Positions 5,040 to 24,293 of a DNA stretch of 64,000 nt are shown piece after piece. The stretch is taken from NCBI GenBank assembly GCA_041659065.1, contig JBAZYY010000002.1, positions 24,091 through 88,090 of the forward strand, read 5' to 3'. The first letter of the stretch is position 1; the number at the start of each line of letters is the position of its first letter. Source of the DNA: Parcubacteria group bacterium (GTDB taxonomy: Bacteria; Patescibacteriota; Minisyncoccia; Moranbacterales; UBA11712). Both the position numbers and the translations under genes were made by a program. The notes below the pieces were generated by a model. That model ran no database searches, was not told the origin of the DNA, and saw nothing but the letters and a program-made list of their open reading frames with translations.

Positions 5040-5180
5040 AAAATGATAAACTATCTATAGAGAATTAATTATCAATTTCTAATTTTCAATCAATTTTCAA
5101 TGACTCAATTTTCAATTTCATAATATTTCTGGATTGAAAATTGAAAATTCATTGTAAATTGATCATTGAAGATTGAAAAT
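5040..5180. repeat. AT-rich palindromic intergenic element (CAATTTTCAAT / ATTGAAAATTG heptamer arms), family D
   Basis: Arms of degenerate tandem repeats that are reverse complements of each other; related copy at 40500-40590. Confidence 0.6.
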
Positions 5181-5734
5181 TGCCAGAAAACATGCAAAAT
5201 TATCAAGAAAGACTAGTAGCGATAACTTTTCCAGTAGCGACATATAAGACCAAGGATATCGCCTGGACCATCAGCCTCATCATCGCTTCTGTAATTTTTC
5301 CCGCACTCCTGGCTCACAGTCCCCAGAATCAGTGGATTACCGGAACTATCGTGAACGCCATTATATTTATCGCAGTTTGGCGCGTCGGAATTGTGAATGC
5401 CATGCTTGTTGCCGCACTCCCGTCTTCAATCGCGCTTACGCGCGGACTTCTGCCAGCTCCAATGGCGATCATGATCCCTTATATTATTGCATCAAATATA
5501 GTTCTGATTCTGGCTTTTTATGCTATAAAAAAATACCCACTCATGGGAATTATCTCGGCATCGATATTGAAATTTTTATTTCTCTTCGCAATTACTTCCC
5601 TCTTGGTCAAACTAGCCTCGCCCCTCTTAGTGATGATGCAATGGCCGCAGCTCGTGACCGCTCTGGCCGGCGGCCTCATCGCAGTTGGAATTATAAAAAA
5701 CACCCACGTCCTCATTCCTAAAGTCGGACTTTAG
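5180..5734 (+). CDS. Hypothetical polytopic membrane protein
   Basis: About 5 hydrophobic helices; the last codons and the stop lie inside a REP palindrome. Confidence 0.4.
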   Translation: MPENMQNYQERLVAITFPVATYKTKDIAWTISLIIASVIFPALLAHSPQNQWITGTIVNAIIFIAVWRVGIVNAMLVAALPSSIALTRGLLPAPMAIMIPYIIASNIVLILAFYAIKKYPLMGIISASILKFLFLFAITSLLVKLASPLLVMMQWPQLVTALAGGLIAVGIIKNTHVLIPKVGL

Positions 5735-5736
5735 GA
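5716..5736. repeat. REP-like palindrome TCCTAAAGTCGGACTTTAGGA
   Basis: 8-bp inverted repeat CCTAAAGT/ACTTTAGG; one of at least 6 copies in the window. Confidence 0.65.
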
Positions 5737-5742
5737 AAAACT

Positions 5743-6408
5743 TTATTCGAAAACTATTTCTTCGTCTTGTTTTTTCATTTGAAAATCGGTAATATTTTCT
5801 GCAGCATATTCTTCTAATTCTTTGTAATTTCTAAAGTCTCCTCTGAATTCTTCATCTCTTACTAAATCATCTCTGCTTTTTCCAATGTGATGCAGAAAAC
5901 TGCACCAAGGATAGCTTTCCGCTGCACAAACTTTATGCACTTCGCTGTTGCAGCTCACGTACACTGAAAATCTCGAAAGGGACCCCTCGGATTTTATCTG
6001 CGAAGATTTGAACTTGCCCTGAAATAAGGCGCCATTTCGCTTATTCCTCTCATTGAAATATTTCGTATAACTTGTGCCTAGTTTTTGCAAAAATTTTTCA
6101 ATTCCTTTCTCAACTCTTTGTTTCAAGATCATATGGTAGTGATTTGACATGAGGCAATAACTGACAATATCCACGAGATATTCTCTTTTCCTAAAGTTCG
6201 ACTTTAGGAAGTCATCGAAATTGGCATTCTTGACACACTTCTTATAGTCGCGCCATTTTATCATTGCCCCATCCTCCTTATCATTCAAGAGATTCATCGA
6301 GATAAGAAACCGAGAAAAGTCTCCGTTATCCAAAAACACATCGCGCTTGTCCACGCCGCGATTATAAATATGATAATATTCATTTTCCACAAGAGGCGTT
6401 TTTCTCAT
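5743..6408 (-). CDS. IS200/IS605-family Y1 (HUH) transposase, REP-associated tyrosine transposase (RAYT)-like
   Basis: YHIYNRG N-terminus, HUH motif CLMSNHYHMIL, LFQGKF and C-terminal Tyr (VYVSCNS); flanked by REP palindromes. Confidence 0.8.
   Translation of the reverse strand: MRKTPLVENEYYHIYNRGVDKRDVFLDNGDFSRFLISMNLLNDKEDGAMIKWRDYKKCVKNANFDDFLKSNFRKREYLVDIVSYCLMSNHYHMILKQRVEKGIEKFLQKLGTSYTKYFNERNKRNGALFQGKFKSSQIKSEGSLSRFSVYVSCNSEVHKVCAAESYPWCSFLHHIGKSRDDLVRDEEFRGDFRNYKELEEYAAENITDFQMKKQDEEIVFE
6189..6209. repeat. REP-like palindrome inside the RAYT coding sequence
   Basis: TCCTAAAGTTCGACTTTAGGA; translates in frame as …FLKSNFRK… in the RAYT. Confidence 0.6.
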
Positions 6409-6423
6409 CGTATTTCATCTTTT

Positions 6424-6444
6424 TCCTAAAGTTCGACTTTAGGA
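6424..6444. repeat. REP-like palindrome
   Basis: TCCTAAAGTTCGACTTTAGGA immediately upstream of the RAYT start. Confidence 0.65.
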
Positions 6445-6500
6445 TAACAGATCTTACAAAAAGCCACAAAAAAACAAGCTTAACGCCTGTTTTTCGCAAT

Positions 6501-6547
6501 TCCTAAAGTCGAACTTTAGGAAGGGTTAAACTTTAGGAAGGGTTAAG
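6501..6547. repeat. REP-like palindrome plus an extra half-site
   Basis: TCCTAAAGTCGAACTTTAGGA followed by AAACTTTAGGAAGGGTTAAG. Confidence 0.6.
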
Positions 6548-6563
6548 AATGGTTATTTTTTTC

Positions 6564-6610
6564 CTACCAACATTGAATGTTGGTAGGGGTTATTGAATGT
6601 TGGTGAGGGT
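6564..6610. repeat. Second palindrome type (CTACCAACATTGAATGTTGGTAG plus a half copy)
   Basis: Inverted repeat CAACATT/AATGTTG; half repeat TATTGAATGTTGGTGAGGG follows. Confidence 0.5.
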
Positions 6611-6628
6611 TTATGGAAGAGATAACGG

Positions 6629-7339
6629 CTACTGGGAACAGACATACGCCTCGCCAACAGTCAATTCGCCTGTCAATGAAGAATAGCAACCACCACCCGG
6701 TGGACGGAAAGTGGAGACGGCGTCGGAGCGATAGCAAAGACCCCATGAACCAAGGTCATATATTTGTTTAAAACCGGAAGGACAATATCCCTGCGGCAAC
6801 CCGGCATTATTGCATATATTAGTAGTGCCTGGTGAGGTCTTGTCGCTAAAATTACAATAATAAGTAAAACTTGCGCCTCCTGTTGCCGTCGCCGCCACCG
6901 CCGCTTCGATCGCTCTTTGGGTTTCATTCCCTTCCCGGCCCACGGAGCGAACGGCTTGAATGTCAGCAAAGGTAGGGGCATCAGTAGTGGCATTGATTTC
7001 AGCTTGAGTCATGACCGTACCGTCTTCTTTGAGGAAGTAGACTTTGCAGTTTACTCCAATTCCAGAGGGACAGTTTATGCTGCCGTCTGCGTTGGGAGAC
7101 AGGCTGTTTTTGATATCGCCGTTGGTATTGGCGATTTTATTAAGAGCCCATTCCACTCCGGATTCGGCGTCATAGAAAGACGCTACCGAGCTTTTGCCTT
7201 TTTGGCTCATTTTCATCTCCATCACCGTGACGGAAGAAAGCGAGATGATAATGGTGAGAATGGCAAAAAGTAAGATGGTGGCCAGAAGAAGGGCGGAAGC
7301 TTTGTTTTTTTTGAACTTTTTGTTTTTGTTCATAATCAT
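6629..7339 (-). CDS. Membrane-anchored secreted protein with Cys-rich C-terminal domain (pilin-like topology, no canonical prepilin motif)
   Basis: N-terminal Lys-rich stretch plus one hydrophobic helix; 9 Cys in the last ~90 aa (YYCNF…YCPSG…GLCY…GGCY…YVCS), resembling the C-termini of the ORFs at 36934 and 38352. Confidence 0.5.
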   Translation of the reverse strand: MIMNKNKKFKKNKASALLLATILLFAILTIIISLSSVTVMEMKMSQKGKSSVASFYDAESGVEWALNKIANTNGDIKNSLSPNADGSINCPSGIGVNCKVYFLKEDGTVMTQAEINATTDAPTFADIQAVRSVGREGNETQRAIEAAVAATATGGASFTYYCNFSDKTSPGTTNICNNAGLPQGYCPSGFKQIYDLGSWGLCYRSDAVSTFRPPGGGCYSSLTGELTVGEAYVCSQ

Positions 7340-7510
7340 AAAGATTAATTTTTATTTATATTTATTCGCGATACAATTTAAAGTGTAAAGTGCAAAGTTG
7401 AAAATTACAATGAAAAACTGAAAATGAAATAATATCAAACATCTCTTTACTTTTTAATAATTTTTGTATTTTAGATTGTTATTTTGATTTTTGATATTTT
7501 AATTTTACAT

Positions 7511-7939
7511 TTAGCTTATCTCCAACTCTTCTTTGATTTTTTTAACAAGATCTTCCAGCTTCCACTTGGATTTAATAAAATAATAGGCTGGACCACTGGC
7601 GATAATTTCGTTCAGCGTCTTATCATCCGGATTTAGATTCGTGAGAATTATGATTGGAACATCTTTGCCCCACGGATCCTGCCGCAATTTTTCCATCATG
7701 GATTTCCCATCCATGACCGGCATGAACAAATCGAGAATGATAAGATCCGGCTTGGTCTTCAGCGCGATTTCAAGGCCTTCTTCTCCGTTCCTGGCTTCAA
7801 GAATAGAAAATCCCTCAAGCGTGAATTTGTCAGAGAGAACCCTTAACATTGGGAGTTCGTCCTCAATGATCAGTAATTTTTTGCCTGTTACTTGCTCCAT
7901 ACGTTTTTTATGCACTAAATGGAAGTTTTCAGACTTCAA
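7511..7939 (-). CDS. Response regulator, stand-alone receiver domain (CheY-like)
   Basis: LLIIEDE…D…LIILDLFMPVMDG…K receiver-domain Asp/Lys pattern. Confidence 0.8.
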   Translation of the reverse strand: MKSENFHLVHKKRMEQVTGKKLLIIEDELPMLRVLSDKFTLEGFSILEARNGEEGLEIALKTKPDLIILDLFMPVMDGKSMMEKLRQDPWGKDVPIIILTNLNPDDKTLNEIIASGPAYYFIKSKWKLEDLVKKIKEELEIS

Positions 7940-7940
7940 A

Positions 7941-9521
7941 TTAGTGGGATTTTATAGGTAAACTTACGAAAAAAGTTGAGCCTTTGTTTTCAATGGAATC
8001 AAACCAAATCTTGCCCCCGGATTGTTTTATTATGGCCCGAGCGATATAGAGACCCAGCCCCGTTCCGTCAGTATCCTTATTCCTAACATTATCAGCTCTG
8101 AATAGTTTTGTAAATATCTTGGCTTGCTGATGTTTCGGAATGCCATAGCCAGTGTCGGAGATTCCAATGACAATTTCCAGCCCTTTTTTTTGACTCTCAA
8201 CTGTCACGCTGCCTTTTTCCGGGGTATACTTTATGGCATTTGAAAGCAGATTTTGAAAAACAATCCGAATGTGCTCCACATCGGCAAAAATTGGAGGAAT
8301 ATCCGCGTCGTATTTTTTTACGATTTCGATCTGCTTGCTGCTGATGAGAGGGGCGAATTCATTTATCAAACTATCCAAAAGACCGCGCAAATCCAGCCTC
8401 GCCGGCTCGGCGACTAGTGTCCCCATGTCGATTCTCGAAGCATTCAGGAGATCGTCCACCAAATCTATCATTCTCCTGTTGCCGATATAAATTTCATCCA
8501 AATATTGTTTCTGTTTTGGATTTAGAAACCCCGCGTCGCCGCTGATAAGCATTTCAGCGTACCAGGAAACCGAGGTTAACGGAGTTCTTAGCTGATGAGA
8601 AGCTAGTGAAACAAATTCCGTTTTTGCCTTATCGATTTCTTTTATCCGAATAATGTCCCTTTCGGCTCTGGCTAAAATATCCAGCGAACTGAAGGTGGCA
8701 TAAATCAAATAGAGAAAAACGCCAGCAACGATAAAAAGGTGGACAATTGATTCGTAAATATAATCATACAGGCCACTTTTCCCGCCGAGCATGACCAGAA
8801 CTTCGATTACGATTAGCACCAGGAGCGCAAAGATCAAGCGCCTAGCCACCAAGGAACTTATCCCGTGGCTTACAAAAATCCTCATGTAGCCATAATCCGG
8901 CCGCAAAGACAATGTACTCATAAATATCAGCACAAAAGCTACTGCCGTATGAGCAGCCATTCCTTTATAGTGGGAAATGGTGTAAAGATTAGGAAGATTA
9001 TAGATGAATCCAAACAGAGACAACAGCGCCAGAAAGCCCGCTACCATTATAACTGCCTGCCCAAGCATCATGCTGCGCCTTGTGCGAAGATTGCATAAAA
9101 ATAATGAGATTCCAACCGCCAGAAAATTTATTGCGCTTTGAGGTGACATTCTGACAACCGCAGTTCCCATTTTTTGCGAGAAAAGGATACTGTCGATTCC
9201 GAAGTTGATTCCAGCTATATATTCTATTATTGTAGAAAAACTTACCGCGATCAAAAACAAAGAAAAAAACCAGACAACGTAATTCAACCTTGAGCCAACA
9301 TTTTTTTTGGAGAGAATAAAGATGGAAAAACCGGCGGCAACAAAAGAAACCGCTGAATTTGGCGCAATTACAGGAAGACTCGGAAAAACCCGCTTGAAAA
9401 TTTCGATATCCGTCCACCAACCGATTATCGCGAGTAAGCCAATGCAGAATATCAACAGGCTCAAATAAGCTGCTGACTGTCGAAGAACCCGTACGAGGCG
9501 TAAATTGATTTGACTCTTCAT
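7941..9521 (-). CDS. Sensor histidine kinase with multi-pass membrane N-terminus
   Basis: H-box SHQLRTPLTSV, N/G boxes (LLSNAIKYT, DTGYGIP, GTGLGLYIARAI); about 8 TM helices. Confidence 0.8.
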   Translation of the reverse strand: MKSQINLRLVRVLRQSAAYLSLLIFCIGLLAIIGWWTDIEIFKRVFPSLPVIAPNSAVSFVAAGFSIFILSKKNVGSRLNYVVWFFSLFLIAVSFSTIIEYIAGINFGIDSILFSQKMGTAVVRMSPQSAINFLAVGISLFLCNLRTRRSMMLGQAVIMVAGFLALLSLFGFIYNLPNLYTISHYKGMAAHTAVAFVLIFMSTLSLRPDYGYMRIFVSHGISSLVARRLIFALLVLIVIEVLVMLGGKSGLYDYIYESIVHLFIVAGVFLYLIYATFSSLDILARAERDIIRIKEIDKAKTEFVSLASHQLRTPLTSVSWYAEMLISGDAGFLNPKQKQYLDEIYIGNRRMIDLVDDLLNASRIDMGTLVAEPARLDLRGLLDSLINEFAPLISSKQIEIVKKYDADIPPIFADVEHIRIVFQNLLSNAIKYTPEKGSVTVESQKKGLEIVIGISDTGYGIPKHQQAKIFTKLFRADNVRNKDTDGTGLGLYIARAIIKQSGGKIWFDSIENKGSTFFVSLPIKSH

Positions 9522-9526
9522 TTTTT

Positions 9527-10387
9527 CTATTTGTTTTGCAGATTCCTAAATAGCTCTATCTTCTTTTCGACTACTTTTTGGACCGAATCACGAGCTTGAG
9601 CCAAAACTTTTCTAGGATCTATCACATCACATCTGTCTTTCGTAAACTGGCAAAGTACGGTATTAAAGGCAATTCTCAGATCGGTGTCAATATTGAAGCA
9701 AGCTATACCACGTTTGACTGCCTCCTCGACTTTGTGATTCACCCAATCACTGGCGCCATGGAGAACCAAGGGTGTTTCCGGGATTATTTTTCGAATAGTT
9801 TCGAGCCGTTTCCAGTCTGGCTCTGATCTCTCCCGAAAAAATCCGTGCGCATTCCCAATTGCGATTGCCAGGGTATCAACCCCCGTTTCCTCGACCAGCC
9901 ATTTGGCCTCCAGCGGATCCGTCATGAGCTTGTCCCAATCCGGATTTTGATCATATTCCCCCATGGATGGCACAACTCCAATTTCCGCCTGCACTGACAC
10001 TCCCTTCGGGTGTGCGTATTCAACCACGCGTTTGGTTGTTGCGATATTATCTTGAAGTGATTCCCTTGCCGCATCAATCATAACCGATTTTATGCCCAGC
10101 TCAATGGCTCTCACTATAGTATCAAGACTCCGACCATGATCTAAGTGTAACCCAATTGGGAGGGATCCTGATTCTTTATCGATAACCGCTTTTATAACTT
10201 CCACAATAACGGAATCGCCGGCGTAATCCAAAGTTTTTTCGGTGAATTGGACAACTACCGGCGTCTTGAGTTTTACCGCGGCCCGCACAATAGCTTGGGT
10301 CACTTCCATATCCGGCGTGTTAAAAGCACCCACGGCATATCCGTTTTCTTGGGCCTCAACTAAAATATCTTTGGTACTGGCAAGCAT
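9527..10387 (-). CDS. fba: Fructose-bisphosphate aldolase, class II
   Basis: GLHLDHG, MIDAS-like, GNAHG motifs of class II FBA. Confidence 0.85.
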   Translation of the reverse strand: MLASTKDILVEAQENGYAVGAFNTPDMEVTQAIVRAAVKLKTPVVVQFTEKTLDYAGDSVIVEVIKAVIDKESGSLPIGLHLDHGRSLDTIVRAIELGIKSVMIDAARESLQDNIATTKRVVEYAHPKGVSVQAEIGVVPSMGEYDQNPDWDKLMTDPLEAKWLVEETGVDTLAIAIGNAHGFFRERSEPDWKRLETIRKIIPETPLVLHGASDWVNHKVEEAVKRGIACFNIDTDLRIAFNTVLCQFTKDRCDVIDPRKVLAQARDSVQKVVEKKIELFRNLQNK

Positions 10388-10397
10388 AGACTACTAG

Positions 10398-10523
10398 AAT
10401 TTTGAATTTAGAATTGTGAATTAAGAATAGGGATATTACCTGCTAACCGAAAGAAATACAGGATGTAGATCATTTTGTGATTAATATTCTATATTCCATA
10501 TTCCCATTCTCAATTCTTTATTT
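10398..10523. repeat. AT-rich palindromic intergenic element, family A (GAATTGTGAATT … ATTCTATATTCCATATTCCCATTCTCAATTC)
   Basis: Imperfect ~125-bp palindrome; the 31-mer ATTCTATATTCCATATTCCCATTCTCAATTC is identical to the copy at 11860-11890. Confidence 0.6.
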
Positions 10524-10524
10524 A

Positions 10525-11307: not shown

Positions 11308-11779
11308 CAGTTAAAACGGTTACAATTAGTCCTGCGATCACGCACCCTAGAATAATCAACGGAATTGATTTCTTAAGTTTTACATTGAACACAAACGCGG
11401 CAAGGGGCCCTGTCCACCCGCCCAGGAGCGGAATAGGAGTCGCCGTCAGGATAAAAACCGCGAAGGCGCCCCATTTTTCAAATTTTTTTTGCCCTCGTTT
11501 TCGAGTGTGCTCAAACAGCCAGTCGAAAAATTTTTTAAATGCACTGACGTTATCAGAGAGAAATTTTGCAATCGGATTAAGAATTAGAACTATCAAGATC
11601 ATCGGGACCAAATTTCCCAAAACCGACCAGAGATAAGCTGACCAAATCGGCAGATGATAGATTTTAATGGCTATCGGAATTGAAGCCCTCAATTCCGAAA
11701 TCGGGACCATGGCGATCAGAAATGTCGCAAGCTCGGGAGGGAAATTCTGAAACCAGGTGGAATAGTCAAAGTGAAACAT
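11297..11779 (-). CDS. COG2426-family small membrane protein (the so-called small multidrug export protein family)
   Basis: SELRASIP … PLLGGWTGP motifs, 4 TM helices. Confidence 0.5.
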   Translation of the reverse strand: MFHFDYSTWFQNFPPELATFLIAMVPISELRASIPIAIKIYHLPIWSAYLWSVLGNLVPMILIVLILNPIAKFLSDNVSAFKKFFDWLFEHTRKRGQKKFEKWGAFAVFILTATPIPLLGGWTGPLAAFVFNVKLKKSIPLIILGCVIAGLIVTVLTVGL

Positions 11780-11793
11780 CCTTAATAGAATCG

Positions 11794-11913
11794 GGAATTG
11801 TGAATTTGGAATTTGGAATGGGGATTAAGGACAAAGAATAAAGGTTTTTAGCATTCCCAGATTCTATATTCCATATTCCCATTCTCAATTCACAATTCTA
11901 AATTCAAAATTCT
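11794..11913. repeat. AT-rich palindromic intergenic element, family A
   Basis: GAATTGTGAATTTGGAATTTGGAATGGGG … CCCAGATTCTATATTCCATATTCCCATTCTCAATTCACAATTC. Confidence 0.6.
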
Positions 11914-11914
11914 T

Positions 11915-12970: not shown

Positions 12971-12998
12971 TTCGTATGTCGTATAAAGTACCTCGTAT

Positions 12999-13388
12999 TT
13001 AGGGCATATTTTTGATTCTCTTTAGTCCGCTGATAATTTTTGCAGTCGTTACTGTTTGACTCGCAATTTTACCAAATTCATTTTTACTAATATAACCGAC
13101 ATCTTTAGAAATCAATAATTGATTTTGCAATTCAATAAGCGAGCTACTTGCTATGTAATAAAATTGACATTTTTCTTTGTTCCCATTGCGACCGAAGCCC
13201 TCGGCTATGTTTGAAGATACCGAAACAGATGCTCTCCTCATCTGATTCATTAATCCAAACATTTCTGTTTTCGGAAATTTATCCGTTACTTTATAAACCA
13301 TCAAAACCAACTTATGCGCTTCGCGCCATGCCCGCAGATCGGTAAATGACTTTATTTTATCGCCCTCCATACGAAATACGATATACAA
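12999..13388 (-). CDS. Four-helix-bundle protein (23S rRNA intervening-sequence protein family)
   Basis: FPKTEMFGLMNQMRRASVSVSSNIAEGFGR signature of the TIGR02436 family. Confidence 0.75.
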   Translation of the reverse strand: MYIVFRMEGDKIKSFTDLRAWREAHKLVLMVYKVTDKFPKTEMFGLMNQMRRASVSVSSNIAEGFGRNGNKEKCQFYYIASSSLIELQNQLLISKDVGYISKNEFGKIASQTVTTAKIISGLKRIKNMP

Positions 13389-13393
13389 AATAC

Positions 13394-14143
13394 TTAGTAC
13401 TTATACTGCCTTGTTATCATTCGCCACTTCACCTGAAACAGTTCCATTAGAGTTTTGATATATCCTTTGACGCCCACCAGGCTTTGCCCGGCATCAATCC
13501 AGATTACCGGCACTTGATCGATTTCGTAGCCCTTTTTCCTCGCCAGCATAAGCATCTCAAAATCCCCTCCCCAGCGGTCAACTTTCATTTGAGGCACGAT
13601 GTCCTTCACCGCCTTTTCCGAAACAACCTTAAATCCGCATTGGGTATCCTCAATTCCTCGAAGTCCCATCAGGCACTGGATCAGAATATTTCCCAGATCC
13701 CCGAGCATCTCTTTCCATTTCGGCTGATGTTTTTTTATTTGCGCTTCTTTAAGATCGCGAGATCCGATGATGATGTCCCGGCCTTTCTCCATGAACGGCC
13801 AAAAGCCTTCCATGTTTGTGATGGAGGTCGCGCCATCCGCGTCAGTAAGCAACCTGTACTCGCCGTGCGCCTTCATGAATCCCTCACGTACGGAATACCA
13901 TTTTCCACGATTTTTTTTGCGATCAATAACAATGCACTTTTTGACCAGATGCCCGAGCTCGCGTCCGACATCCGCCGTGTTATCTTTCGATCCATCGCTA
14001 ACGATAATAACCTCGTAGGATATATTTTTCTTCCCGAGATATCGGCCAATTTCTGACATATTATGCCGCATCTCTTTTCCTTTTCGCCCGCCTTCATTAT
14101 AGGCCGGGATAATGATTGACAGATAGGGTTTTGTATTTTGCAT
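13394..14143 (-). CDS. Family 2 glycosyltransferase (dolichyl-phosphate mannosyltransferase-like)
   Basis: LSIIIPAYNE, VSDGSKD, DADG motifs; start moved to the internal MQNTKPY (14143) because the longer ORF start at 14242 would run through the upstream palindromic element. Confidence 0.75.
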   Translation of the reverse strand: MQNTKPYLSIIIPAYNEGGRKGKEMRHNMSEIGRYLGKKNISYEVIIVSDGSKDNTADVGRELGHLVKKCIVIDRKKNRGKWYSVREGFMKAHGEYRLLTDADGATSITNMEGFWPFMEKGRDIIIGSRDLKEAQIKKHQPKWKEMLGDLGNILIQCLMGLRGIEDTQCGFKVVSEKAVKDIVPQMKVDRWGGDFEMLMLARKKGYEIDQVPVIWIDAGQSLVGVKGYIKTLMELFQVKWRMITRQYKY

Positions 14144-14268
14144 AGGATTCTGAATTGTGGATTTTGAATTGTAAATGGGAATGAGAAATAATGAATCTTG
14201 AATAAATTTTCTATATTCTTGATTCCAAGTTCCTATTCTCAATTCTGAATTCTAAATTCACAATTCTT
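14144..14268. repeat. AT-rich palindromic intergenic element, family A (diverged copy)
   Basis: GATTCTGAATTGTGGATTTTGAATTG … TTCTATATTCTTGATTCC…TTCTCAATTCTGAATTC. Confidence 0.5.
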
Positions 14269-14382
14269 TTAACATTTCTGTATTTAACTGCTTGTATTTT
14301 ACCATATATTAAAAAAATGCACCAAATCTTATGAGGGCATCAAACGCATGCTGCTTCGCCATATATTGTTCCATGTTTTATG

Positions 14383-14811
14383 TTATATGTTGCGTGATTT
14401 TCTATCCAACCAGCTCTGCAGTATTATCCTGGCCGCTTCCTGATCGTCATATCTCTTGATTCCTTTCATTCCTTTCTCGATGAGATTCTGATAAGCCTGC
14501 TTGGTGGTGAACATTTCATCCTCATAATCGACATTGATTTTCAATTTATCCGCCAGAAGATTCCCTAGTTTTTCGCCGGGGTAGATAACTTGTTTTTTAT
14601 TGATATGCGAAGCTACCCCGATTATCACTTTTGAAATATTTTCTCGCTCGATAATTTCAGTGATATTTTGAAGCATATTTTTATCATTAGCGAGGGTTTT
14701 TAACGCAAAAGCCATTCGGGTCTCAGAATCAGCTATAGCCAGGCCAACCTTAGACTCGCCATAATCTATCCCCAGAAATTTGCTTATTTTAGCCTCATTT
14801 AGTTCTGCCAT
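14383..14811 (-). CDS. ruvX: Holliday junction resolvase-like protein YqgF/RuvX
   Basis: FLGIDYGESKVGLAIAD N-terminus typical of YqgF. Confidence 0.8.
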   Translation of the reverse strand: MAELNEAKISKFLGIDYGESKVGLAIADSETRMAFALKTLANDKNMLQNITEIIERENISKVIIGVASHINKKQVIYPGEKLGNLLADKLKINVDYEDEMFTTKQAYQNLIEKGMKGIKRYDDQEAARIILQSWLDRKSRNI

Positions 14812-14966
14812 TGACTTTATGTTTTATTTATGCTATTATTCACAATCAGTACCTTAAAAAGGTATTCGTAGCGCATTTGTCGCTCCACGTAAGTATAACA
14901 TTTTACTTTTAGAGTGGTAAATTTAATTGGAGTGACAAAAAAACCATAGCAAGGAGACCAATAGTT

Positions 14967-15515
14967 ATGTTAAAGAATATCTTAAAAAGGGCAGGGCAGA
15001 ATATCCAACTGTTTACTTATCAGCTCTTCACCGAGCATGCGTTTAAGTGGGGATTTGGATTCATCCTCTATTCAGCTATTCTGGCCTTCACGGAAGTCTC
15101 AAGCTCAAGCTCAACCGCAAACCCCGAAATTACCATCGTCCTCATAGTTTTTTTCCTGTTCATCTTCGGCATCTTTTCTATGGTTATAGGTGCCGTGAGA
15201 GATGTCTCCGGGATGACCTACTGGTCATTTCTGAAAGAAATACGCCCAGAGATTGAATTGAAGGTAGAGCCACCGACGATTACGCCGGCAGATAGGGAAG
15301 CCGCTTTTTTAACTCTATCTCCTTTTCTTTTCCTATGGATTCTATGTGGGATGTTTGTTGGAGTCATACTGCATTTCATCTTCATCCCGACTCAGGCGTC
15401 TTGGACTCGAGCCTTGATAATCTATGTCGCCCTGGTTGATTTGTCCATACTAGCCATTTGGGCTGGTACGCAGCAACTTATGCGGTGGGTCAAAAACCTG
15501 CCGGAGGATGGCTGA
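14967..15515 (+). CDS. Hypothetical membrane protein
   Basis: AAGGAG RBS; 4 hydrophobic helices. Confidence 0.45.
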   Translation: MLKNILKRAGQNIQLFTYQLFTEHAFKWGFGFILYSAILAFTEVSSSSSTANPEITIVLIVFFLFIFGIFSMVIGAVRDVSGMTYWSFLKEIRPEIELKVEPPTITPADREAAFLTLSPFLFLWILCGMFVGVILHFIFIPTQASWTRALIIYVALVDLSILAIWAGTQQLMRWVKNLPEDG

Positions 15516-15765
15516 TATGAAATCTTTCTTTTTGCCGGCTTTCTTGGTCGGCACAACTCTGGCGCTGCTGAAATTAGCAGTTTATCGGGGAGACAGTCGA
15601 TTCCTCGACTGGGGACCGCGGATTCCTGAGATGTCTCCCATGTGGCCGCTTCTGGCGGCCGCAACTCTGGCCATCATCAGCTTCCTCGCCGTGTGGAAAT
15701 TCTCCCGACGGGAAGCCAAACTAAAAAACGCTGCAGCTGAACCCACAGCGGCAACATTGAGATAA
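15508..15765 (+). CDS. Hypothetical small membrane protein
   Basis: 8-nt overlap with the upstream ORF, 2 TM helices. Confidence 0.3.
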   Translation: MADMKSFFLPAFLVGTTLALLKLAVYRGDSRFLDWGPRIPEMSPMWPLLAAATLAIISFLAVWKFSRREAKLKNAAAEPTAATLR

Positions 15766-15840
15766 TACGCTGCCAAGCTGCAGACATTGGATAACTATGA
15801 TAAAACCGCCACCAAAGGGTGGTGAGGGGAGAAAATAATT

Positions 15841-16107
15841 ATGTTCTCGTGGATAATCGCTTTGTGGAATTGGAGCCCAATTGCGACAATAGCAATATAT
15901 TTTGTTGGCGGGTTGATCTTCGCAGCGATCTCTGCTCGGGATCAAAATAAAACTGCGCAGAATGACCCGTCTATTAAAGAATGCGACTTAGGGGAATTTG
16001 CCTTCAACATGGGGCTTTGGCTCCCCATAGTCTTTCTCCTAATTGGAATTCCATTGATGGAGAAAGCTAAAAAGATCGCAAGGCGCATTTTCCGTTGCAC
16101 CTCATAA
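15841..16107 (+). CDS. Hypothetical small membrane protein
   Basis: GGGGAG RBS, 2 TM helices. Confidence 0.35.
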   Translation: MFSWIIALWNWSPIATIAIYFVGGLIFAAISARDQNKTAQNDPSIKECDLGEFAFNMGLWLPIVFLLIGIPLMEKAKKIARRIFRCTS

Positions 16108-16189
16108 TCCCTGACAAGAGCCCGGCTCTCGTCAACGCACCCTCGGCCCTCGCCATTAACTTTGGTGGGGGCTGCTTTTTTATTAAAGC

Positions 16190-16300
16190 CCAAATTTCAA
16201 AGCTCAAATATCAAATAAAATCCAAAATCCCAATGTCAAATTTGGATTTTGATCTTTGGGCTTGGTTTGTCATTTGGATTTTGAAATTTGAATTTATAAT
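16190..16300. repeat. AT-rich palindromic intergenic element, family C (AAATCCAAAATCC / GGATTTTGGATTT arms)
   Basis: Shares segments (TTGGGCTTGGTTTGTCAT) in reverse orientation with the element at 18290-18440. Confidence 0.55.
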
Positions 16301-17064
16301 TTCGTGAGTATTTCGCATCCATCGCTCGTCACCACGACCGTATGTTCCCAGTGTCCGTTCAGTTTCCCATCGGCGGTTTTGTAAGTCCATCCATCGTCAG
16401 CAAGAACAATATCATATCCCCCTTCATTCACCATCGGCTCAAGCGCGAGCGTCATTCCCTCTTCAAGAATGATCTTCTTCATCCGCTTGTCGGCATAGTT
16501 AAAAACTTGCGGATCCTCATGAATGGAATGTCCGACTCCGTGCCCGACGAGATCTCTCACTACCGAAAAACCATTTTTCTCGGCGTGTTTTTGGACTGCT
16601 TTTCCATATTTAAAGAGCGTTTTTCCCGGCTTTATTTCAGCTATTCCGGCTCCAAGGCTCTCTTTCGTCACTCGCATCAATTTCTCGGCTGCTGGCGAAA
16701 TTTTTCCGACTCCCGCCATTACTGTCGCGTCGGTATGCATTTTTTTGTATTCAACCCCCAAGTCCAATTTCACGATATCCCCTTCGAAAAAAACTTTGTT
16801 TTCGACAGGCAGCCCATGCACAACTTCATTATTAATAGAAACGCAAACCGCCGCCGGATAGCCCTCGCCGTATCCACCCGGCTGATAATTCAGAAACGAA
16901 GGCTTGGAATCCATAGAAAAAACAAGCTCTCTTGCAAGCTTGTCAATCTCAATTGCTCTAACTCCGGGCAAAACACGCTCGGACAGTTTTTGAAGCACTT
17001 CAGCTAAAATCCGCCCGCTCCGGCGCATTATTTCAATTTCATCTTTTGACTTTATGGTAATCAT
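16294..17064 (-). CDS. map: Methionine aminopeptidase type I
   Basis: Metal-ligand pattern D…D…H…E…E in the pita-bread fold (VCVSINNEVVHG, DIVKLDLG, HGVGHSIHE, LALEPM). Confidence 0.9.
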   Translation of the reverse strand: MITIKSKDEIEIMRRSGRILAEVLQKLSERVLPGVRAIEIDKLARELVFSMDSKPSFLNYQPGGYGEGYPAAVCVSINNEVVHGLPVENKVFFEGDIVKLDLGVEYKKMHTDATVMAGVGKISPAAEKLMRVTKESLGAGIAEIKPGKTLFKYGKAVQKHAEKNGFSVVRDLVGHGVGHSIHEDPQVFNYADKRMKKIILEEGMTLALEPMVNEGGYDIVLADDGWTYKTADGKLNGHWEHTVVVTSDGCEILTKL

Positions 17065-17109
17065 ATTCTAGGATCTCTAAGGAGTGTTTATCTAGGTTAT
17101 AAGGAGGAA

Positions 17110-17565
17110 ATGCTGATGTCTCTCACATTGTTCATTTTTTGCACCTTTCTAGCGCTTACAGCTGATGGCATAGCCTCCTTTTTCAAAAAATGGGAGACAG
17201 GTACCACCGCTTTGCGCATCAAGGATCTGAACCGGGAAGCTAAATTTACTCTCTGGACCGTCACATTAACCTGCGATCCAATTCTGTCATTCTGTTTTAC
17301 AAACTTTCTGGGAAAATTCATGACCAGACAAGGGGCGATTGCATGGTTAGGCCTGGTGCTACCGACTTACATTCTCTATAGGCTGATCATGCTTTTGTCT
17401 GACAAATGCTGGCGCCAGCGCATCCCCCGAAGTGAGAAGAAAATACGAGATGCGAGAATGATTAGAAGGCACTACTCTATTGCGATCTTCTTCCTTTCGG
17501 CCGCAACGGCATGGCATTTGCAACCACTGGTATGTTTCTATCTTCCAGCTATCTTTAGCTACTAG
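17110..17565 (+). CDS. Hypothetical membrane protein
   Basis: AAGGAGG RBS 7 nt upstream; followed by a terminator hairpin. Confidence 0.45.
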   Translation: MLMSLTLFIFCTFLALTADGIASFFKKWETGTTALRIKDLNREAKFTLWTVTLTCDPILSFCFTNFLGKFMTRQGAIAWLGLVLPTYILYRLIMLLSDKCWRQRIPRSEKKIRDARMIRRHYSIAIFFLSAATAWHLQPLVCFYLPAIFSY

Positions 17566-17566
17566 T

Positions 17567-17606
17567 AGGGCTCTGGCGAACGACTTCGCTTGGGCCCTGC
17601 TTTTTA
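17567..17606 (+). terminator. Intrinsic terminator (two-tier hairpin plus T5)
   Basis: AGGGC…GCGAA-CGAC-TTCGC…GCCCT then GCTTTTT. Confidence 0.45.
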
Positions 17607-17608
17607 AT

Positions 17609-18265
17609 CTAGTCTCTTATGCGATTTTCTAGTAAATCCACTACTTCAGCAAAAACCTCTTCAACGCTCTGCTGTCCGTCAATTTCAATCAGTAAATTTT
17701 TGTTTTTATAATAACCAATTACTGGCGTAGTCTCCTCATGATAAACTTTCAGCCTTTTCTTCACGCCTTCCGGCGTATCGTCCGCGCGCTGAAAAATATC
17801 ACTTCCATCAATAGGGCATTTGTCTTTTTCGCTCTGAACATCGACTCCCATAATCAGCGGGTGACCGTTTTTGCATGTCCAGCGGCGGCAAATCCGTCTG
17901 ACTGATTCTTCTTCAGAAATATTTATCAAAATGACCGCGTCAATTTTTCGGCCCGTTTCCTGAAGAGCTGACTCCAGATAATCCATCTGTTCCTGATTTC
18001 GCGGCACACCATCGAAAACTATCCCTTGCTCTCTAGGAAGTTCATTTAGCTTCAGGTGCAGGACTTCTCGCATAATTCTGCTTGGAACCAGGGTCTTGGT
18101 GACATTCTGAATTTGCCATATCTCTTTTCCCAGGGGAGTATCGAGTTTCGCTACCACGCGCAGATATTTCCCCATATCAATGTGCTCCAGATTGTATTTT
18201 TTCGCAAGAAGTTCCGCTTGAGTGCCTTTGCCTGATCCCTGGGGACCTAAAACTATTATATTCAT
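17609..18265 (-). CDS. adk: Adenylate kinase
   Basis: P-loop GPQGSGKGTQA; Cys4 LID (CRRWTC…C). Confidence 0.9.
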   Translation of the reverse strand: MNIIVLGPQGSGKGTQAELLAKKYNLEHIDMGKYLRVVAKLDTPLGKEIWQIQNVTKTLVPSRIMREVLHLKLNELPREQGIVFDGVPRNQEQMDYLESALQETGRKIDAVILINISEEESVRRICRRWTCKNGHPLIMGVDVQSEKDKCPIDGSDIFQRADDTPEGVKKRLKVYHEETTPVIGYYKNKNLLIEIDGQQSVEEVFAEVVDLLENRIRD

Positions 18266-18289
18266 AAAACTTATCTGAGGCTATGCTTT

Positions 18290-18440
18290 TTATAATTATA
18301 CAGTTTTTATTTATAACTATATCTTTAAATCCAAATATCAAATCTCAAATGACAAACCAAGCTCAAAACTCAAAATGAAAAAATGAAATTGGGATTTTGG
18401 ATTTAATTTGAAATTTGGGCTTTGGATTTTGGATTTTCCG
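18290..18440. repeat. AT-rich palindromic intergenic element, family C
   Basis: CAAATATCAAATCTCAAATGACAAACCAAGCTCAAAA … TTTGGGCTTTGGATTTTGGATTTT. Confidence 0.55.
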
Positions 18441-19712
18441 CTAAAATCCTTCGTAATCTCGCATTATAAGCTGGGATTCAATTTGTTTCATTATTTCAAT
18501 CACCACGCTAACCACAATGAGAAGTCCCGTGCCCCCGATTGTGAGAGATTGGATGTGCGTCATTCCCTGAACAGCAAATGGCAAAACGGCTATGGCTCCC
18601 AGAAACAGCGCGCCGGAAAGAGTAATTCGATTAAGCGTGTGACTGAGATATTCCGCAGTAGCCTGTCCCGGCCGAATGCCCGGCACGAATCCACCCTGCT
18701 TTTGCAAATTTTCGGAAATATTTTTGGGGTCAAACGTGACCGCGGTGTAGAAATACGTGAAAAGGACAACCAATAAAAAATAGGCTGAACCGTAGAACCA
18801 TTGGTTCTTAAATATACTGTCCACAACGGTTGCGAAATGTGCCAGTGAGGGATTTGCCGCATTGCTTAGAAAATTCGCTATCATGCCGGGAAAAAGCATA
18901 ATAGACATGGCAAAAATTATCGGAATCACTCCGGCCTGGTTGACTCTCAGGGGCAAATGCGTCGACGTTCCGCCGTAAACCCGATTTCCCCGCACTCTCT
19001 TGGCATACGAGACTGGAATATTGCGCTGGCCCTCCGTCACAAAAACAACTGCGGCGATTACCAGAATCGCGAAAACAAGAAAACCGATGTATGTGAAAAG
19101 TTTAGTTGAATCCCAAACAACGAAAAGCTGAGATATGGAGGTCGGGAGACTGGCTACGATTCCGGCAAAGATTATTATTGATACGCCATTCCCGATATTT
19201 TTTTCCGTAATTAGTTCCCCCAGCCACATAAGAAAAACCGTCCCAGCTGTGGCTGTCACTATTATCGTCGCCATTTGAAGGCTAGTAAGATCCCCTAATA
19301 TATGCTGGGAGCGAAACAGGTTAATCATCGCGAAAGTTTGAAGGGCCGCGAGCGGTACAGTTATCCAACGTGTCCACATATTGAATTTCTGACGGCCGGC
19401 TTCGCCTTCTTCCTTATAGATCTGCTCCAAGCGAGGAACAATCATCGTAAGAAGTTGCATAATGATGGAGGCCGTAATATATGGACCGACTCCAAGCATC
19501 ACGACGGAAATGTTGCGAAGTCCGCCGCCGGAAAACATATTCAGCAGGCCAAAAAACTGATTATTTTCAAAAAAACTTCTCAGTTGATCTATGTTTACAC
19601 CGGGTACCGGAATGTTAGCCGCCACCCTAAATACAACTAAAATCCCCAGTACGAAGAGGATTTTATTTCGCAGTTCCTTTATCTTAAATATTTGGACTAA
19701 CTTTTCCCACAT
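18441..19712 (-). CDS. secY: Preprotein translocase subunit SecY
   Basis: 10-TM topology; conserved position after rplO. Confidence 0.9.
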   Translation of the reverse strand: MWEKLVQIFKIKELRNKILFVLGILVVFRVAANIPVPGVNIDQLRSFFENNQFFGLLNMFSGGGLRNISVVMLGVGPYITASIIMQLLTMIVPRLEQIYKEEGEAGRQKFNMWTRWITVPLAALQTFAMINLFRSQHILGDLTSLQMATIIVTATAGTVFLMWLGELITEKNIGNGVSIIIFAGIVASLPTSISQLFVVWDSTKLFTYIGFLVFAILVIAAVVFVTEGQRNIPVSYAKRVRGNRVYGGTSTHLPLRVNQAGVIPIIFAMSIMLFPGMIANFLSNAANPSLAHFATVVDSIFKNQWFYGSAYFLLVVLFTYFYTAVTFDPKNISENLQKQGGFVPGIRPGQATAEYLSHTLNRITLSGALFLGAIAVLPFAVQGMTHIQSLTIGGTGLLIVVSVVIEIMKQIESQLIMRDYEGF

Positions 19713-19801
19713 AGTTTTAGACTTTTGAATTTTGAATTACGAATTTGGAGAAAGAATATGAAATCTTGAATTTCGAATTCATCATTCTAAATTCCAAATT
19801 C
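19713..19801. repeat. AT-rich palindromic intergenic element (GAATTTTGAATT type)
   Basis: TTTTGAATTTTGAATTACGAATTTGG … GAATTTCGAATTCATCATTCTAAATTCCAAATTC. Confidence 0.5.
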
Positions 19802-22512: not shown

Positions 22513-22593
22513 TTCTAAATATTATTATGACTTATGAGTTGCGGATTGATCGAACTTCTAAATTCCATTAATCCGCAGCCCCTACTCCATATC

Positions 22594-23498: not shown

Positions 23499-23536
23499 AA
23501 CTTTTCATTTTTCACTTTAAACTCTTAACTTCTTTT

Positions 23537-24285: not shown

Positions 24286-24293
24286 AATAAATA

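What the first reader, a model, noticed from the sequence alone, without database searches (positions are those of the whole stretch)
5040..19801. Most intergenic regions are built from AT-rich heptamer-repeat palindromes belonging to several families
- Intergenic spaces around hydC/5180, fba-tpiA, COG2426-galT, the GT2 5' end, map, adk-secY and secY-rplO consist of 90-150-bp imperfect palindromes. Their arms are degenerate tandem heptamers (GAATTGT/GAATTTG; CAATTTT; AAATCCA).
- Family A copies at 10486-10515 and 11860-11890 share an identical 31-mer.
- Family C copies at 16190-16300 and 18290-18440 share segments in opposite orientation.
- Family D recurs at 40500-40590.
- Identical sub-segments argue for duplication or mobility rather than independent origin.
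- They may serve as bidirectional terminators or promoter-insulating elements.
- The palindrome at 14144-14268 also implies that the GT2 gene starts at the internal Met (14143).
Basis: seen in the sequence. Interest (0 to 1): 0.55.

Follow-up and report, generated by a model that had tools for sequence, protein, structure and literature searches.

The report
Heptamer-repeat hairpin elements between genes
Many gene spacers in this tiny candidate-phyla-radiation bacterial genome are filled by hairpin-forming repeats whose arms are strings of 7-base units; they are real, recently multiplied and turn over fast, they resemble cyanobacterial STRR and REP/MITE elements, and any single copy looks dispensable.

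Summary
Tandem arrays in this window occur almost only at period 7: 19 strict arrays, none at periods 2-5 or 8-13. They lie almost only between genes. 14 of 15 elements fold better than dinucleotide shuffles (z -2.2 to -6.3).

The window comes from a Patescibacteria/CPR genome (Moranbacteria-like). E has A-rich heptamers, a GGTRTCGCTTCGCGA core, an AU loop, the inverted core, then U-rich heptamers.

A close relative (SecY 86% identical) has 4-19-nt spacers at four of those junctions. Another (84%) carries unrelated heptamer palindromes at nearly every junction. The E core is absent from 160 other loci. Across 138 CPR loci, period-7 arrays dominate (162, against 3-31 at other periods) and neighbouring arrays are preferentially inverted.

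Best reading: lineage-specific, self-multiplying STRR-like palindromes. Slippage grows the arms, duplication spreads the elements, and they are tolerated as intercistronic hairpins. An obligatory terminator or insulator role is unlikely. The phenomenon appears undescribed for CPR in the literature I could search.

The parts
5073..5182 (.). Family D copy 1. The arms are (AATTTTC)n then (GAAAATT)n. It lies in the divergent region between the 2Fe-2S ferredoxin-like gene (4575-5015, -) and ORF 5180-5734 (+).
   Evidence: Period-7 arrays. Hairpin z -3.99. 81-84% identical to 40500-40620.
7372..7502 (.). Decayed element. A-rich heptamers (TAAAGTG) come first, then T-rich heptamers (ATTTTGA). The arms are no longer complementary.
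   Evidence: Arrays. Fold z +1.06. Shares a 14-mer with copy E1.
10394..10516 (.). Family A copy 1 (GAATTNN arms) in the tpiA|fba spacer.
   Evidence: z -2.44. The 31-mer at 10486-10516 is identical to 11861-11891.
11787..11913 (.). Family A copy 2 in the galT|PF06695 spacer. The hairpin is made of 5-bp GAATT/AATTC helices separated by 2x2 internal loops every 7 nt.
   Evidence: z -3.17 and the structure.
14152..14266 (.). Family A copy 3. It sits directly upstream of the true GT2 start (Met at 14143).
   Evidence: z -4.56. 85% identical to copy A2 over 54 nt. Start codon evidence.
16191..16290 (.). Family C copy 1 (CAAATNT/AAATCCA arms) at a convergent gene end. It follows a canonical terminator at 16144-16174.
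   Evidence: z -3.27.
18327..18429 (.). Family C copy 2 in the secY|adk spacer, inverted relative to C1. It is followed by a TGTATAAT promoter-like site for adk.
   Evidence: 84% identical to C1 over 108 nt on the opposite strand. z -3.22. Upstream sequence of adk.
19715..19810 (.). Family A-like copy 4 in the rplO|secY spacer. Its 5' arm overlaps the rplO stop codon.
   Evidence: z -4.17.
20752..20865 (.). Family E copy 1 in rplR|rpsE.
   Evidence: TCGCGAAGCGA core. Alignment A1. z -2.54. The relative L083 has a 19-nt spacer here.
22200..22319 (.). Family E copy 2 in rpsN|rpsH. Its core is flipped relative to the other copies.
   Evidence: z -2.62. L083 has a 16-nt spacer here.
23499..23536 (.). 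Heptamer array without a partner arm or core in rplN|rplX (sense strand AAAGTGAAAAATGAAAAGTT).
23909..24013 (.). Family E copy 3 in rpsQ|rplN.
   Evidence: 87.5-89% identical to copy E4 over 121-136 nt. z -6.30.
24913..25025 (.). Family E copy 4 in rpsC|rplP.
   Evidence: z -3.20. L083 has a 17-nt spacer here.
34285..34427 (.). Family E copy 5 in rpsL|rpsG.
   Evidence: z -4.25.
34845..34930 (-). Family E half copy. It has the 3' core and U-rich heptamers only, and forms the leader of rpsL, downstream of a TTGACA-17-TAATAT promoter-like site.
35864..35940 (.). A separate heptamer palindrome: (AAACATG)n then (TGTTACA/CGTGTTA)n.
   Evidence: z -2.33.
40501..40606 (.). Family D copy 2. It lies in the divergent region upstream of ORF 40590-41099 (+).
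   Evidence: z -2.17.
56187..56261 (-). Family E half copy. On the sense strand it reads A-rich heptamers, GGGGGTGTCGCTTCGCGA, then AUUUAUUUUUUUUG, which looks like a terminator.

Best explanation
These are lineage-specific families of dispersed palindromic repeats. Their arms are degenerate tandem heptanucleotide arrays, of the same general kind as cyanobacterial STRR hairpins. Some families also have a unique central core; family E has a REPIN-like inverted doublet of the small palindrome TCGCTTCGCGA.

Two processes shape them.
1. Inferred: replication slippage with a strong preference for 7-nt (and 14-nt) steps grows and diversifies the arms. Hairpin-templated correction would keep the two arms mirrored.
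2. Shown: whole elements are copied to new intergenic sites within the genome. The enzyme is unknown.

They are gained and lost quickly, so no individual copy is an ancestral regulator.

Once transcribed, each forms a long imperfect hairpin. In most copies the base of the hairpin lies within about 15 nt of the upstream stop codon and within 0-21 nt of the downstream start codon. A 90-150-nt insert therefore folds out of the way and leaves the stop and start codons close together.

Inferred effect: read-through intercistronic hairpins. They may stabilise mRNA, pause or attenuate transcription, or couple translation of neighbouring genes. They are tolerated rather than required.
For: REALITY AND PERIOD 7..

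HAIRPINS. 14 of 15 elements fold better than dinucleotide shuffles (z -2.17 to -6.30).

FAMILIES WITH UNIQUE SHARED SEGMENTS.
- 31-mer shared by A1 and A2.
- C1/C2 84% identical over 108 nt in inverted orientation.
- E3/E4 87.5-89% identical over 121-136 nt.
- TCGCGAAGCGA occurs 7 times against 1.4 expected.
- The E core is absent from 160 other loci, about 2.2 Mb of CPR and other DNA around secY.

GAIN AND LOSS.
- CPR r-protein spacers have medians of 4-28 nt at most junctions.
- The closest relative, L083 (SecY 86%), has 17, 16, 19 and 4 nt where the window has 126, 136, 128 and 81 nt. The flanking codons still align.
- L091 (SecY 84%) has different heptamer palindromes at nine junctions.
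- In L084 the secY|adk gap is 4 nt.

CLADE-WIDE PROCESS.
- 162 period-7 arrays in 52 of 138 CPR loci, against 3-31 arrays at other periods.
- Neighbouring arrays are inverted in 37 of 80 pairs and direct in 10 of 80. Random pairs give about 5% and 6%.
- Unit sequences are very diverse within each genome. Sharing is 18% within loci and 10.7% between loci. This fits a mutational process rather than one binding site.

SLIPPAGE-TYPE SUBSTRUCTURE. TRF finds 14-nt higher-order units in several arrays.

NO STRAND PREFERENCE.
- Sense and antisense folding energies do not differ consistently.
- E2 and C2 are flipped relative to their family.

GEOMETRY. Hairpin bases abut the stop and start codons.

PRECEDENT.
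- 7-bp STRR hairpins lie between hupS and hupL in cyanobacteria. Transcript stability and translational coupling were proposed for them (PMC2670836).
- Heptanucleotides are the commonest long simple repeats in bacteria, attributed to polymerase slippage (Mrazek 2007, as summarised in PMC4679880).
Against: - No transposase, target-site duplication or excision intermediate was found. The boundaries are fuzzy because the arms are themselves repeats.
- No copy-number or presence/absence polymorphism was seen. The only other contigs of this organism are 100% identical.
- Why the step is 7 nt is not explained here.
- Some signs of constraint hint at function. The polarity is biased toward A-rich arm then T-rich arm in tandem junctions (21 against 8). 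Both D copies, of the opposite polarity, sit in divergent promoter regions. The GC core of family E is better conserved than its arms. Elements fit exactly between stop and start codons.
- There are no transcript data.
Confidence: 0.6

Rival explanations
1. The elements are bidirectional intrinsic terminators or insulators that cut the genome into small transcription units.
For: - Most copies read A-rich arm, stem, U-rich arm on either strand.
- Family E has a GC-rich inner stem followed by U-rich heptamers.
- The half copy at 56187-56257 reads GUGUCGCUUCGCGA-AUUUAUUUUUUUU.
- The scan flags ATCGCTTCGCGAT plus a T-rich tail at 25001-24989 and 23990-23978.
- C2 lies between the secY stop and a TGTATAAT site upstream of adk.
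- C1 is at a convergent gene end.
Against: - Five E copies lie inside the ribosomal-protein gene string and reach to 0-11 nt from the next ATG. Only E2 has a 9/12 promoter match in its 3' arm.
- Relatives have 4-19-nt spacers at four of those junctions.
- Both D copies are in divergent promoter regions.
- Stems are AU-rich with a 2x2 loop every 7 nt. E loops are 25-35 nt.
- Canonical terminators exist elsewhere: 16144-16174, 29394-29376, and upstream of gene 61470-62939.
- Eight type II (T-rich then A-rich) palindromes occur in tandem junctions of other CPR loci.
Confidence: 0.2
2. The heptad arrays are binding platforms for a protein. On DNA this would resemble the omega repressor of pSM19035 or ToxT/H-NS at ctx heptads. 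On RNA it would resemble S1 or cold-shock proteins next to start codons. Either way the arrays would regulate transcription or translation.
For: - Units are contiguous 7-nt repeats in direct and inverted arrays.
- 3' arms end 0-21 nt from start codons.
- Shine-Dalgarno sequences are rare in this genome.
- D arrays lie in divergent promoter regions.
- MacGregor 2015 proposed S1, Csp or CsrA binding for TAACTGA repeats upstream of start codons, including in r-protein operons (PMC4679880).
- From my own knowledge, not tested here: omega dimers bind contiguous heptads, and a cold-shock domain covers about 7 nt.
Against: - At least six unrelated heptads occur in one 64-kb window, and there are dozens across relatives.
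- Presence at a given junction is not conserved.
- No candidate protein was identified.
Confidence: 0.1
3. The elements are conserved cis-regulatory RNAs of the ribosomal-protein operons, that is, autoregulatory leaders.
For: They lie at r-protein junctions, including rpsL|rpsG, and fold significantly.
Against: - There are no Rfam matches even at E = 0.1.
- The same family occurs at five different junctions and also outside the operon.
- They are absent from orthologous junctions in close relatives.
Confidence: 0.03
4. The pattern is a chance product of AT-rich, low-complexity spacer composition.
For: The spacers are 17-31% GC. One locus, 7340-7510, shows no significant hairpin.
Against: - The signal is exclusive to period 7: 400 bp against 1.5 bp in shuffles.
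- 14 of 15 hairpins beat shuffles.
- Long shared unique segments exist.
Confidence: 0.01

Closest known systems
Cyanobacterial STRR (short tandemly repeated repetitive) heptamer sequences, including the hupS-hupL intergenic hairpins
   Same: - Both have tandem 7-nt units, lie between genes and occur in many copies.
- Both are able to form hairpins inside operons.
- Function is unknown in both. Transcript stability, translational coupling and termination have been proposed for STRR (PMC2670836).
   Different: - The host phylum differs: CPR here, and the genome lacks the cyanobacterial HIP1 octamer GCGATCGC.
- The unit sequences are different and much more diverse.
- Here the arrays are systematically paired as inverted arms around a family-specific centre.
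- Here they occupy ribosomal-protein junctions.
REP / REPIN elements mobilised by RAYT transposases (Bertels & Rainey 2011, PMC3116915)
   Same: - Both are over-represented extragenic palindromes.
- Both form inverted doublets that fold into hairpins, and singlets also occur.
- Both multiply within a genome and are lineage specific.
- The centre of family E is such a doublet.
   Different: - REPINs have no heptamer-array arms.
- The only RAYT-like gene in the window (5743-6408) is flanked by a different palindrome, CTAAAG-N5-CTTTAG.
- No cognate transposase is known for families A, C, D or E.
MITEs (miniature inverted-repeat transposable elements)
   Same: - Both are 90-150 bp long with inverted ends and no coding capacity.
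- Both form multi-copy families.
- Both show filled and empty sites between relatives.
   Different: - No target-site duplication or parent transposon was found.
- The ends are fast-evolving tandem repeats, not conserved terminal inverted repeats.
TAACTGA heptamer direct repeats of Beggiatoaceae, Cyanobacteria and Bacteroidetes (MacGregor 2015, PMC4679880)
   Same: - Both are heptamer arrays directly upstream of start codons, including inside r-protein operons.
- Both occur in genomes or regions poor in Shine-Dalgarno sites.
   Different: - There a single heptamer dominates and the repeats are almost all direct. That paper reports only one indirect repeat set in the BOGUAY genome.
- Here there are many heptamers, arranged as inverted pairs.
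Bidirectional intrinsic terminators
   Same: Both have an A-rich tract, a stem-loop and a U-rich tract that read alike on both strands. The family E core is GC-rich.
   Different: - The arms here are very long and AU-rich with periodic internal loops, and the loops are large.
- The placement inside essential operons differs.
- This genome also has ordinary terminators.
Selfish hairpin repeats of organelle genomes (sponge mitochondrial RHEs, PMC2800124; Volvox palindromic repeats, PMC2670323; titles and abstracts only, seen)
   Same: Both are short hairpin-forming repeats that invade the intergenic DNA of small genomes.
   Different: They are unrelated in sequence, and no 7-nt periodicity is reported in those abstracts.

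Membership tests
STRR (cyanobacterial heptamer repeats) | Tandem repeats with a 7-nt unit | tested here: met
   19 strict arrays at period 7 and none at periods 2-5 or 8-13. TRF agrees.
STRR (cyanobacterial heptamer repeats) | Dispersed, multi-copy, intergenic location, sometimes forming hairpins within operons | tested here: met
   17 of 44 intergenic regions carry an array. Hairpin z -2.2 to -6.3. Copies lie at r-protein junctions.
STRR (cyanobacterial heptamer repeats) | Host is a filamentous cyanobacterium and the units are the defined STRR sequences (from my own knowledge: CCCCAGT, TTGGTCA, CAACAGT) | tested here: not met
   SecY places the window in Patescibacteria. There are no HIP1 sites. 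The units here are GAATTNN, AAAAGTN, AATTTTC, AAATCCA and others.
REP/REPIN | A short palindromic unit over-represented in extragenic space | tested here: met
   For family E only: TCGCGAAGCGA occurs 7 times against 1.37 expected, and no shuffle reached 7.
REP/REPIN | Inverted doublets that form a hairpin together with their spacer | tested here: met
   Five E copies have the core, a 25-35-nt AU spacer and the inverted core. Two copies are half elements (singlets).
REP/REPIN | A cognate RAYT gene flanked by the same REP | tested here: not met
   The RAYT-like gene at 5743-6408 (Pfam Y1_Tnp; NCBIfam REP_Tyr_transpos at 35.7 bits, below the cut-off of 80) is flanked by CTAAAG-N5-CTTTAG palindromes, not by A, C, D or E sequences. 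Only 64 kb of the genome was seen.
MITE | Terminal inverted repeats on a short non-coding element | tested here: met
   The inverted arms are 20-55 nt. However, they are degenerate tandem arrays.
MITE | Target-site duplication flanking the element | tested here: inconclusive
   Filled sites in the window and empty sites in L083 were compared. No duplication is recognisable, and the whole spacer differs.
MITE | A parent autonomous transposon with matching ends | not testable with these tools
   None was found in the 64-kb window. The rest of the genome could not be fetched.
Intrinsic (bidirectional) terminator | A GC-rich stem with a short loop, directly followed by a U-tract | tested here: inconclusive
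   Only the family E cores come close. Their loops are 25-35 nt. Families A, C and D have AU-rich stems with periodic internal loops.
Intrinsic (bidirectional) terminator | Located at the ends of transcription units | tested here: not met
   Five E copies and A4 lie inside the str/S10/spc gene string. Two D copies lie in divergent promoter regions. C1 and C2 do fit.
Heptad operator arrays (omega-repressor type) | Contiguous 7-bp units in direct and inverted orientation | tested here: met
Heptad operator arrays (omega-repressor type) | One conserved heptad sequence, recognised by one repressor, at promoters | tested here: not met
   There are at least six different heptads in the window and high diversity per genome. 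Most copies lie between co-directional genes.
Ribosomal-protein leader RNAs | Conserved structure at the same operon position across relatives | tested here: not met
   No Rfam match. Junction occupancy varies between genomes.

The most novel reading that the evidence does not exclude
Heptad-repeat hairpins could be a clade-wide gene-punctuation system of Parcubacteria-type CPR bacteria. They would be modular intercistronic elements read by a factor with a 7-nt footprint, such as a cold-shock-domain protein, S1, RNase III or a ribbon-helix-helix protein. In Shine-Dalgarno-poor, regulator-poor genomes they would set mRNA processing, attenuation and translational coupling. Their rapid turnover would then reflect continual re-tuning rather than selfish spread.
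Probability: 0.12. Interest if true: 0.75.

Novelty: new variant of a known kind. Interest (0 to 1): 0.45.

Why it matters
CPR/Patescibacteria genomes are about 1 Mb and are thought to be streamlined. Here, however, 90-150-nt repeats have recently been inserted at up to nine junctions of the most conserved operon a bacterium has. Close relatives differ completely in which junctions are filled.

- **Mutational process.** The data point to a strong process of 7-nt slippage combined with palindrome growth and duplication, active across a whole radiation.
- **Markers.** The elements give fast-evolving markers for strain typing in metagenomes.
- **Annotation.** They mislead gene callers. Examples here are the false GT2 start and spurious ORFs at 16095-16307, 24014-24367 and 35889-36173.
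- **An open question made testable.** What heptamer (STRR-type) repeats do has been asked since 1990. This offers a system with natural filled and empty alleles in essential operons.

Tried and rejected
- **Cyanobacterial origin** (first guess, from the STRR resemblance). Rejected: no HIP1 sites, and SecY places the window in CPR.
- **Strand asymmetry** as evidence for an RNA-level function. Sense and antisense folding energies show no consistent difference.
- **A fixed orientation of the family E core.** I first thought there was one, but E2 is flipped.
- **A strict polarity rule** (A-rich then T-rich in tandem or convergent spacers, T-rich then A-rich in divergent ones). It holds in the window. 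Across CPR loci it is only a bias, 21 against 8.
- **A terminator-plus-promoter cassette giving leaderless mRNAs.**
  - Only E2 has a promoter match.
  - A -10-like hexamer 6 nt before the ATG occurs in 10 of 80 genes, against 1-10 (typically about 4) at other upstream offsets.
  - That is suggestive but not significant after allowing for the many positions tested.
- **Strain polymorphism.** Exact-protein look-ups returned only contigs 100% identical to the window, or nothing.
- **Extending beyond the window.** The long source contig was not returned.
- **Known RNA families.** Rfam found none except one tRNA.
- **Target-site duplications.** None was recognisable.
- **Segmental duplication as the cause of D1/D2 similarity.** Rejected: the downstream proteins are unrelated.

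Full report
**1. What the window is**

SecY (18441-19712, minus strand) is at most 74% identical to species representatives. Those are all Patescibacteria/CPR MAGs (Moranbacteria, Parcubacteria, Yanofskybacteria). It is 84-86% identical to three metagenome contigs. The cyanobacterial HIP1 octamer is absent.

Genes from about 16 to 35 kb, all on the minus strand, run in this order: rpsL-rpsG-fusA-tuf-rpsJ-...-rplO-secY-adk-(inserted ORF)-map.

**2.

- **Period 7 only.** Tandem periodicity occurs almost only at 7 nt. There are 19 strict arrays at period 7, eight at period 14, two at period 6 and none at any other period from 2 to 15.
- **Against shuffles.** Intergenic DNA holds 400 bp of such arrays, against 1.5 +/- 6.6 bp in dinucleotide shuffles.
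- **Share of spacers.** Eight of 11 spacers of at least 50 nt in the flagged span carry a period-7 array, and 17 of 44 in the whole window. Periods 5, 6, 8 and 9 give 0-3.
- **Hairpins.** Fourteen of 15 elements fold better than shuffles (z -2.17 to -6.30). The arrays at 7365-7510 do not.
- **Structure.** The hairpins are unusual. In family A they are 5-bp GAATT/AATTC helices separated by 2x2 internal loops every 7 nt. The core of each unit pairs, but the variable positions do not.
The 31-mer, the inverted C copies, the second D copy and the GT2 start are all correct to within a base.

**3.

A fifth and larger family fills ribosomal-protein junctions. On the sense strand it reads: (AAAAGTN)n, GGTRTCGCTTCGCGA, about 25-35 nt of AU, GAGCGAAGCGARCACC, then (NATTTTN)n.

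- Full copies lie at rplR|rpsE, rpsN|rpsH, rpsQ|rplN, rpsC|rplP and rpsL|rpsG.
- Half copies lie upstream of rpsL and at 56187-56257.
- A bare array lies at rplN|rplX.
- E3 and E4 are 87.5-89% identical over the whole spacer.
- The core is itself a mini-palindrome, present as an inverted doublet. This is the REPIN architecture (PMC3116915).
- E2 is flipped, so there is no fixed orientation.

**4. Comparative evidence**

In 58 CPR loci the r-protein spacers have medians of 4-28 nt at most junctions. Period-7 arrays turn up sporadically, at different junctions in different genomes.

| Relative | SecY identity | What its junctions look like |
|---|---|---|
| L083 | 86% | 17, 16, 19 and 4 nt where the window has 126, 136, 128 and 81 nt; flanking codons still align, so these are empty sites |
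| L091 | 84% | Unrelated heptamer palindromes (ACGAA-type and others) at nine junctions |
| L084 | 85% | 4 nt between secY and adk |

The E core occurs in none of 160 other loci. Copies are therefore young, lineage specific and individually dispensable.

The architecture, however, is general.

- 138 CPR loci hold 162 period-7 arrays in 52 loci, against 3-31 arrays at other periods.
- Neighbouring arrays are inverted in 37 of 80 cases and direct in 10 of 80. Random pairs give about 5% and 6%.
- Units are very diverse within each genome.
- Among 22 non-CPR SecY loci, only one (L066) has such arrays.

**5. Mechanism**

*Shown.* These are dispersed families with unique shared segments. Relatives show filled and empty sites. 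The period-7 inverted-array architecture is found across the clade.

*Inferred.*
- Arms grow by replication slippage in 7- and 14-nt steps. TRF finds 14-nt higher-order units. Mrazek 2007, as summarised in PMC4679880, found heptanucleotides to be the commonest long simple repeats and suggested a polymerase footprint.
- The two arms stay mirrored through hairpin-templated (quasipalindrome) correction. This step rests on my own knowledge and was not tested.
- Whole elements are then copied to other spacers by an unknown route.

*Geometry.* The hairpin base lies 1-15 nt after the stop codon; in A4 it overlaps the rplO stop codon. It lies 0-11 nt before the next ATG in all five E copies and in A2 and A3. 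The distances are 21 nt in A4, 30 nt in A1 and 61 nt in C2. I infer that the insert folds away and leaves stop and start codons juxtaposed. This would explain why such inserts are tolerated in essential operons, and it would permit translational coupling or mRNA stabilisation. The same ideas were proposed for cyanobacterial hupS-hupL STRR hairpins (PMC2670836).

**6. Why not terminators or insulators**

- E copies leave no room for promoters, and only E2 shows a 9/12 promoter match.
- Relatives have only 4-19-nt spacers at four of the E-filled junctions.
- D copies sit in divergent promoter regions.
- Ordinary GC-stem/U-tract terminators exist in the genome.

Weak attenuation cannot be excluded, for three reasons. 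Polarity is biased toward A-rich arm then U-rich arm, 21 against 8 across CPR tandem junctions. C2 precedes an adk promoter-like site. The 56-kb half copy looks like a small terminator.

**7. Why not one binding protein**

There are too many different heptads per genome. A structure- or length-reading factor is not excluded, and that is the novel case.

**8. Literature**

Full-text searches found cyanobacterial STRR, TAACTGA repeats, REPINs and organelle hairpin repeats. They found nothing on heptamer palindromes in CPR.

**9. Verdict**

- Mobility or duplication is supported.
- The terminator/insulator function is not supported as an obligatory role.
- I file this as a new variant of known kinds: STRR-like arms on REPIN/MITE-like palindromes, in a phylum where such elements were, as far as I could find, undescribed.
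- Interest is moderate.

Noticed in passing
window 5718-6628, 41100-41145, 57274-57290: There is a RAYT-like Y1 transposase gene at 5743-6408 (minus strand). It hits Pfam Y1_Tnp, and its best NCBIfam hit is 'REP-associated tyrosine transposase', below cut-off. It is flanked by perfect palindromes TTCCTAAAGTTCGACTTTAGGA. CTAAAG-N5-CTTTAG occurs 7 times against 0.04 expected, including a REPIN-like doublet at 41103-41142. This is a second repeat system, unrelated to the heptamers.
   Followed up: partly
window 6512-6618: Tandem 17-mers (AACTTTAGGAAGGGTTA, about 2 copies) and 20-mers (about 2.3 copies) lie next to the RAYT-like gene. The spacer 6409-6628 folds very strongly (z -7.5).
   Followed up: no
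window 16095-16307(+), 24014-24367(+), 35889-36173(+), 14144-14242(-): Long ORFs, or ORF extensions, run through heptamer elements or, in the case of 24014-24367, antisense through rpsQ and rpmC. They are almost certainly spurious and would mislead automatic gene callers.
   Followed up: partly
window 17065-17608: In close relatives adk and map overlap or abut (gaps of -14 to -2 nt). Here 544 nt separate them, holding an opposite-strand ORF (17110-17565, 151 aa). It has no Pfam or NCBIfam match but has a strong AGGAG ribosome-binding site. This looks like a lineage-specific gene insertion.
   Followed up: no
whole window (gene starts): Shine-Dalgarno-like motifs precede only about 17 of 85 genes. 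A -10-like hexamer ends exactly 6 nt before the ATG in 10 of 80 genes, against 1-10 (typically about 4) at other upstream offsets. Examples are the genes at 61470-62939, 54257-55681, 51855-52961, 4575-5015 and 22327-22512. This hints at frequent leaderless mRNAs, but it is not significant after correcting for multiple positions.
   Followed up: partly
window 49797-50738: A 940-nt stretch has no ORF longer than 57 aa and no Rfam match at E <= 0.1. It lies upstream of the ORF at 49512-49796 and near tRNA-Pro (49312-49384). Its content is unexplained.
   Followed up: partly
window 31167-31717: The fusA-tuf spacer is 550 nt and holds only two short overlapping ORFs (69 and 89 aa). There is no Rfam match. 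A strong promoter-like site, TTGACA-17-TAGAAT, lies at 31535-31507 on the minus strand.
   Followed up: no
window 29159-29198: A clean heptamer array, (GCTTTTC) x about 5 at 92% matches, lies inside the rplC coding region. That is unusual for a unit length that is not a multiple of 3.
   Followed up: no
window 22513-22593, 29844-29972, 14812-14966, 47784-47922, 48127-48380: Several other spacers fold far better than shuffles (z -4.0 to -5.4) but show no heptamer periodicity. They include an 81-nt hairpin at rplE|rpsN that is absent from L083, where the gap is 4 nt.
   Followed up: no
L091 1-6400; L018; L066: L091 (SecY 84%) has heptamer palindromes at nine consecutive r-protein-to-adk junctions. 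L018 (Yanofskybacteria) has 515 bp of strict arrays in 21 kb. L066, labelled a Clostridia MAG, is the only non-CPR SecY locus with such arrays (GCTCCGA, AATTGAG units). Period-8 arrays also occur in 19 CPR loci.
   Followed up: partly
window 12999-13388: A gene for a '23S rRNA intervening sequence protein' (PF05635, bAvd-like four-helix bundle) sits between the galT-like and GT2 genes, not inside an rRNA gene.
   Followed up: no
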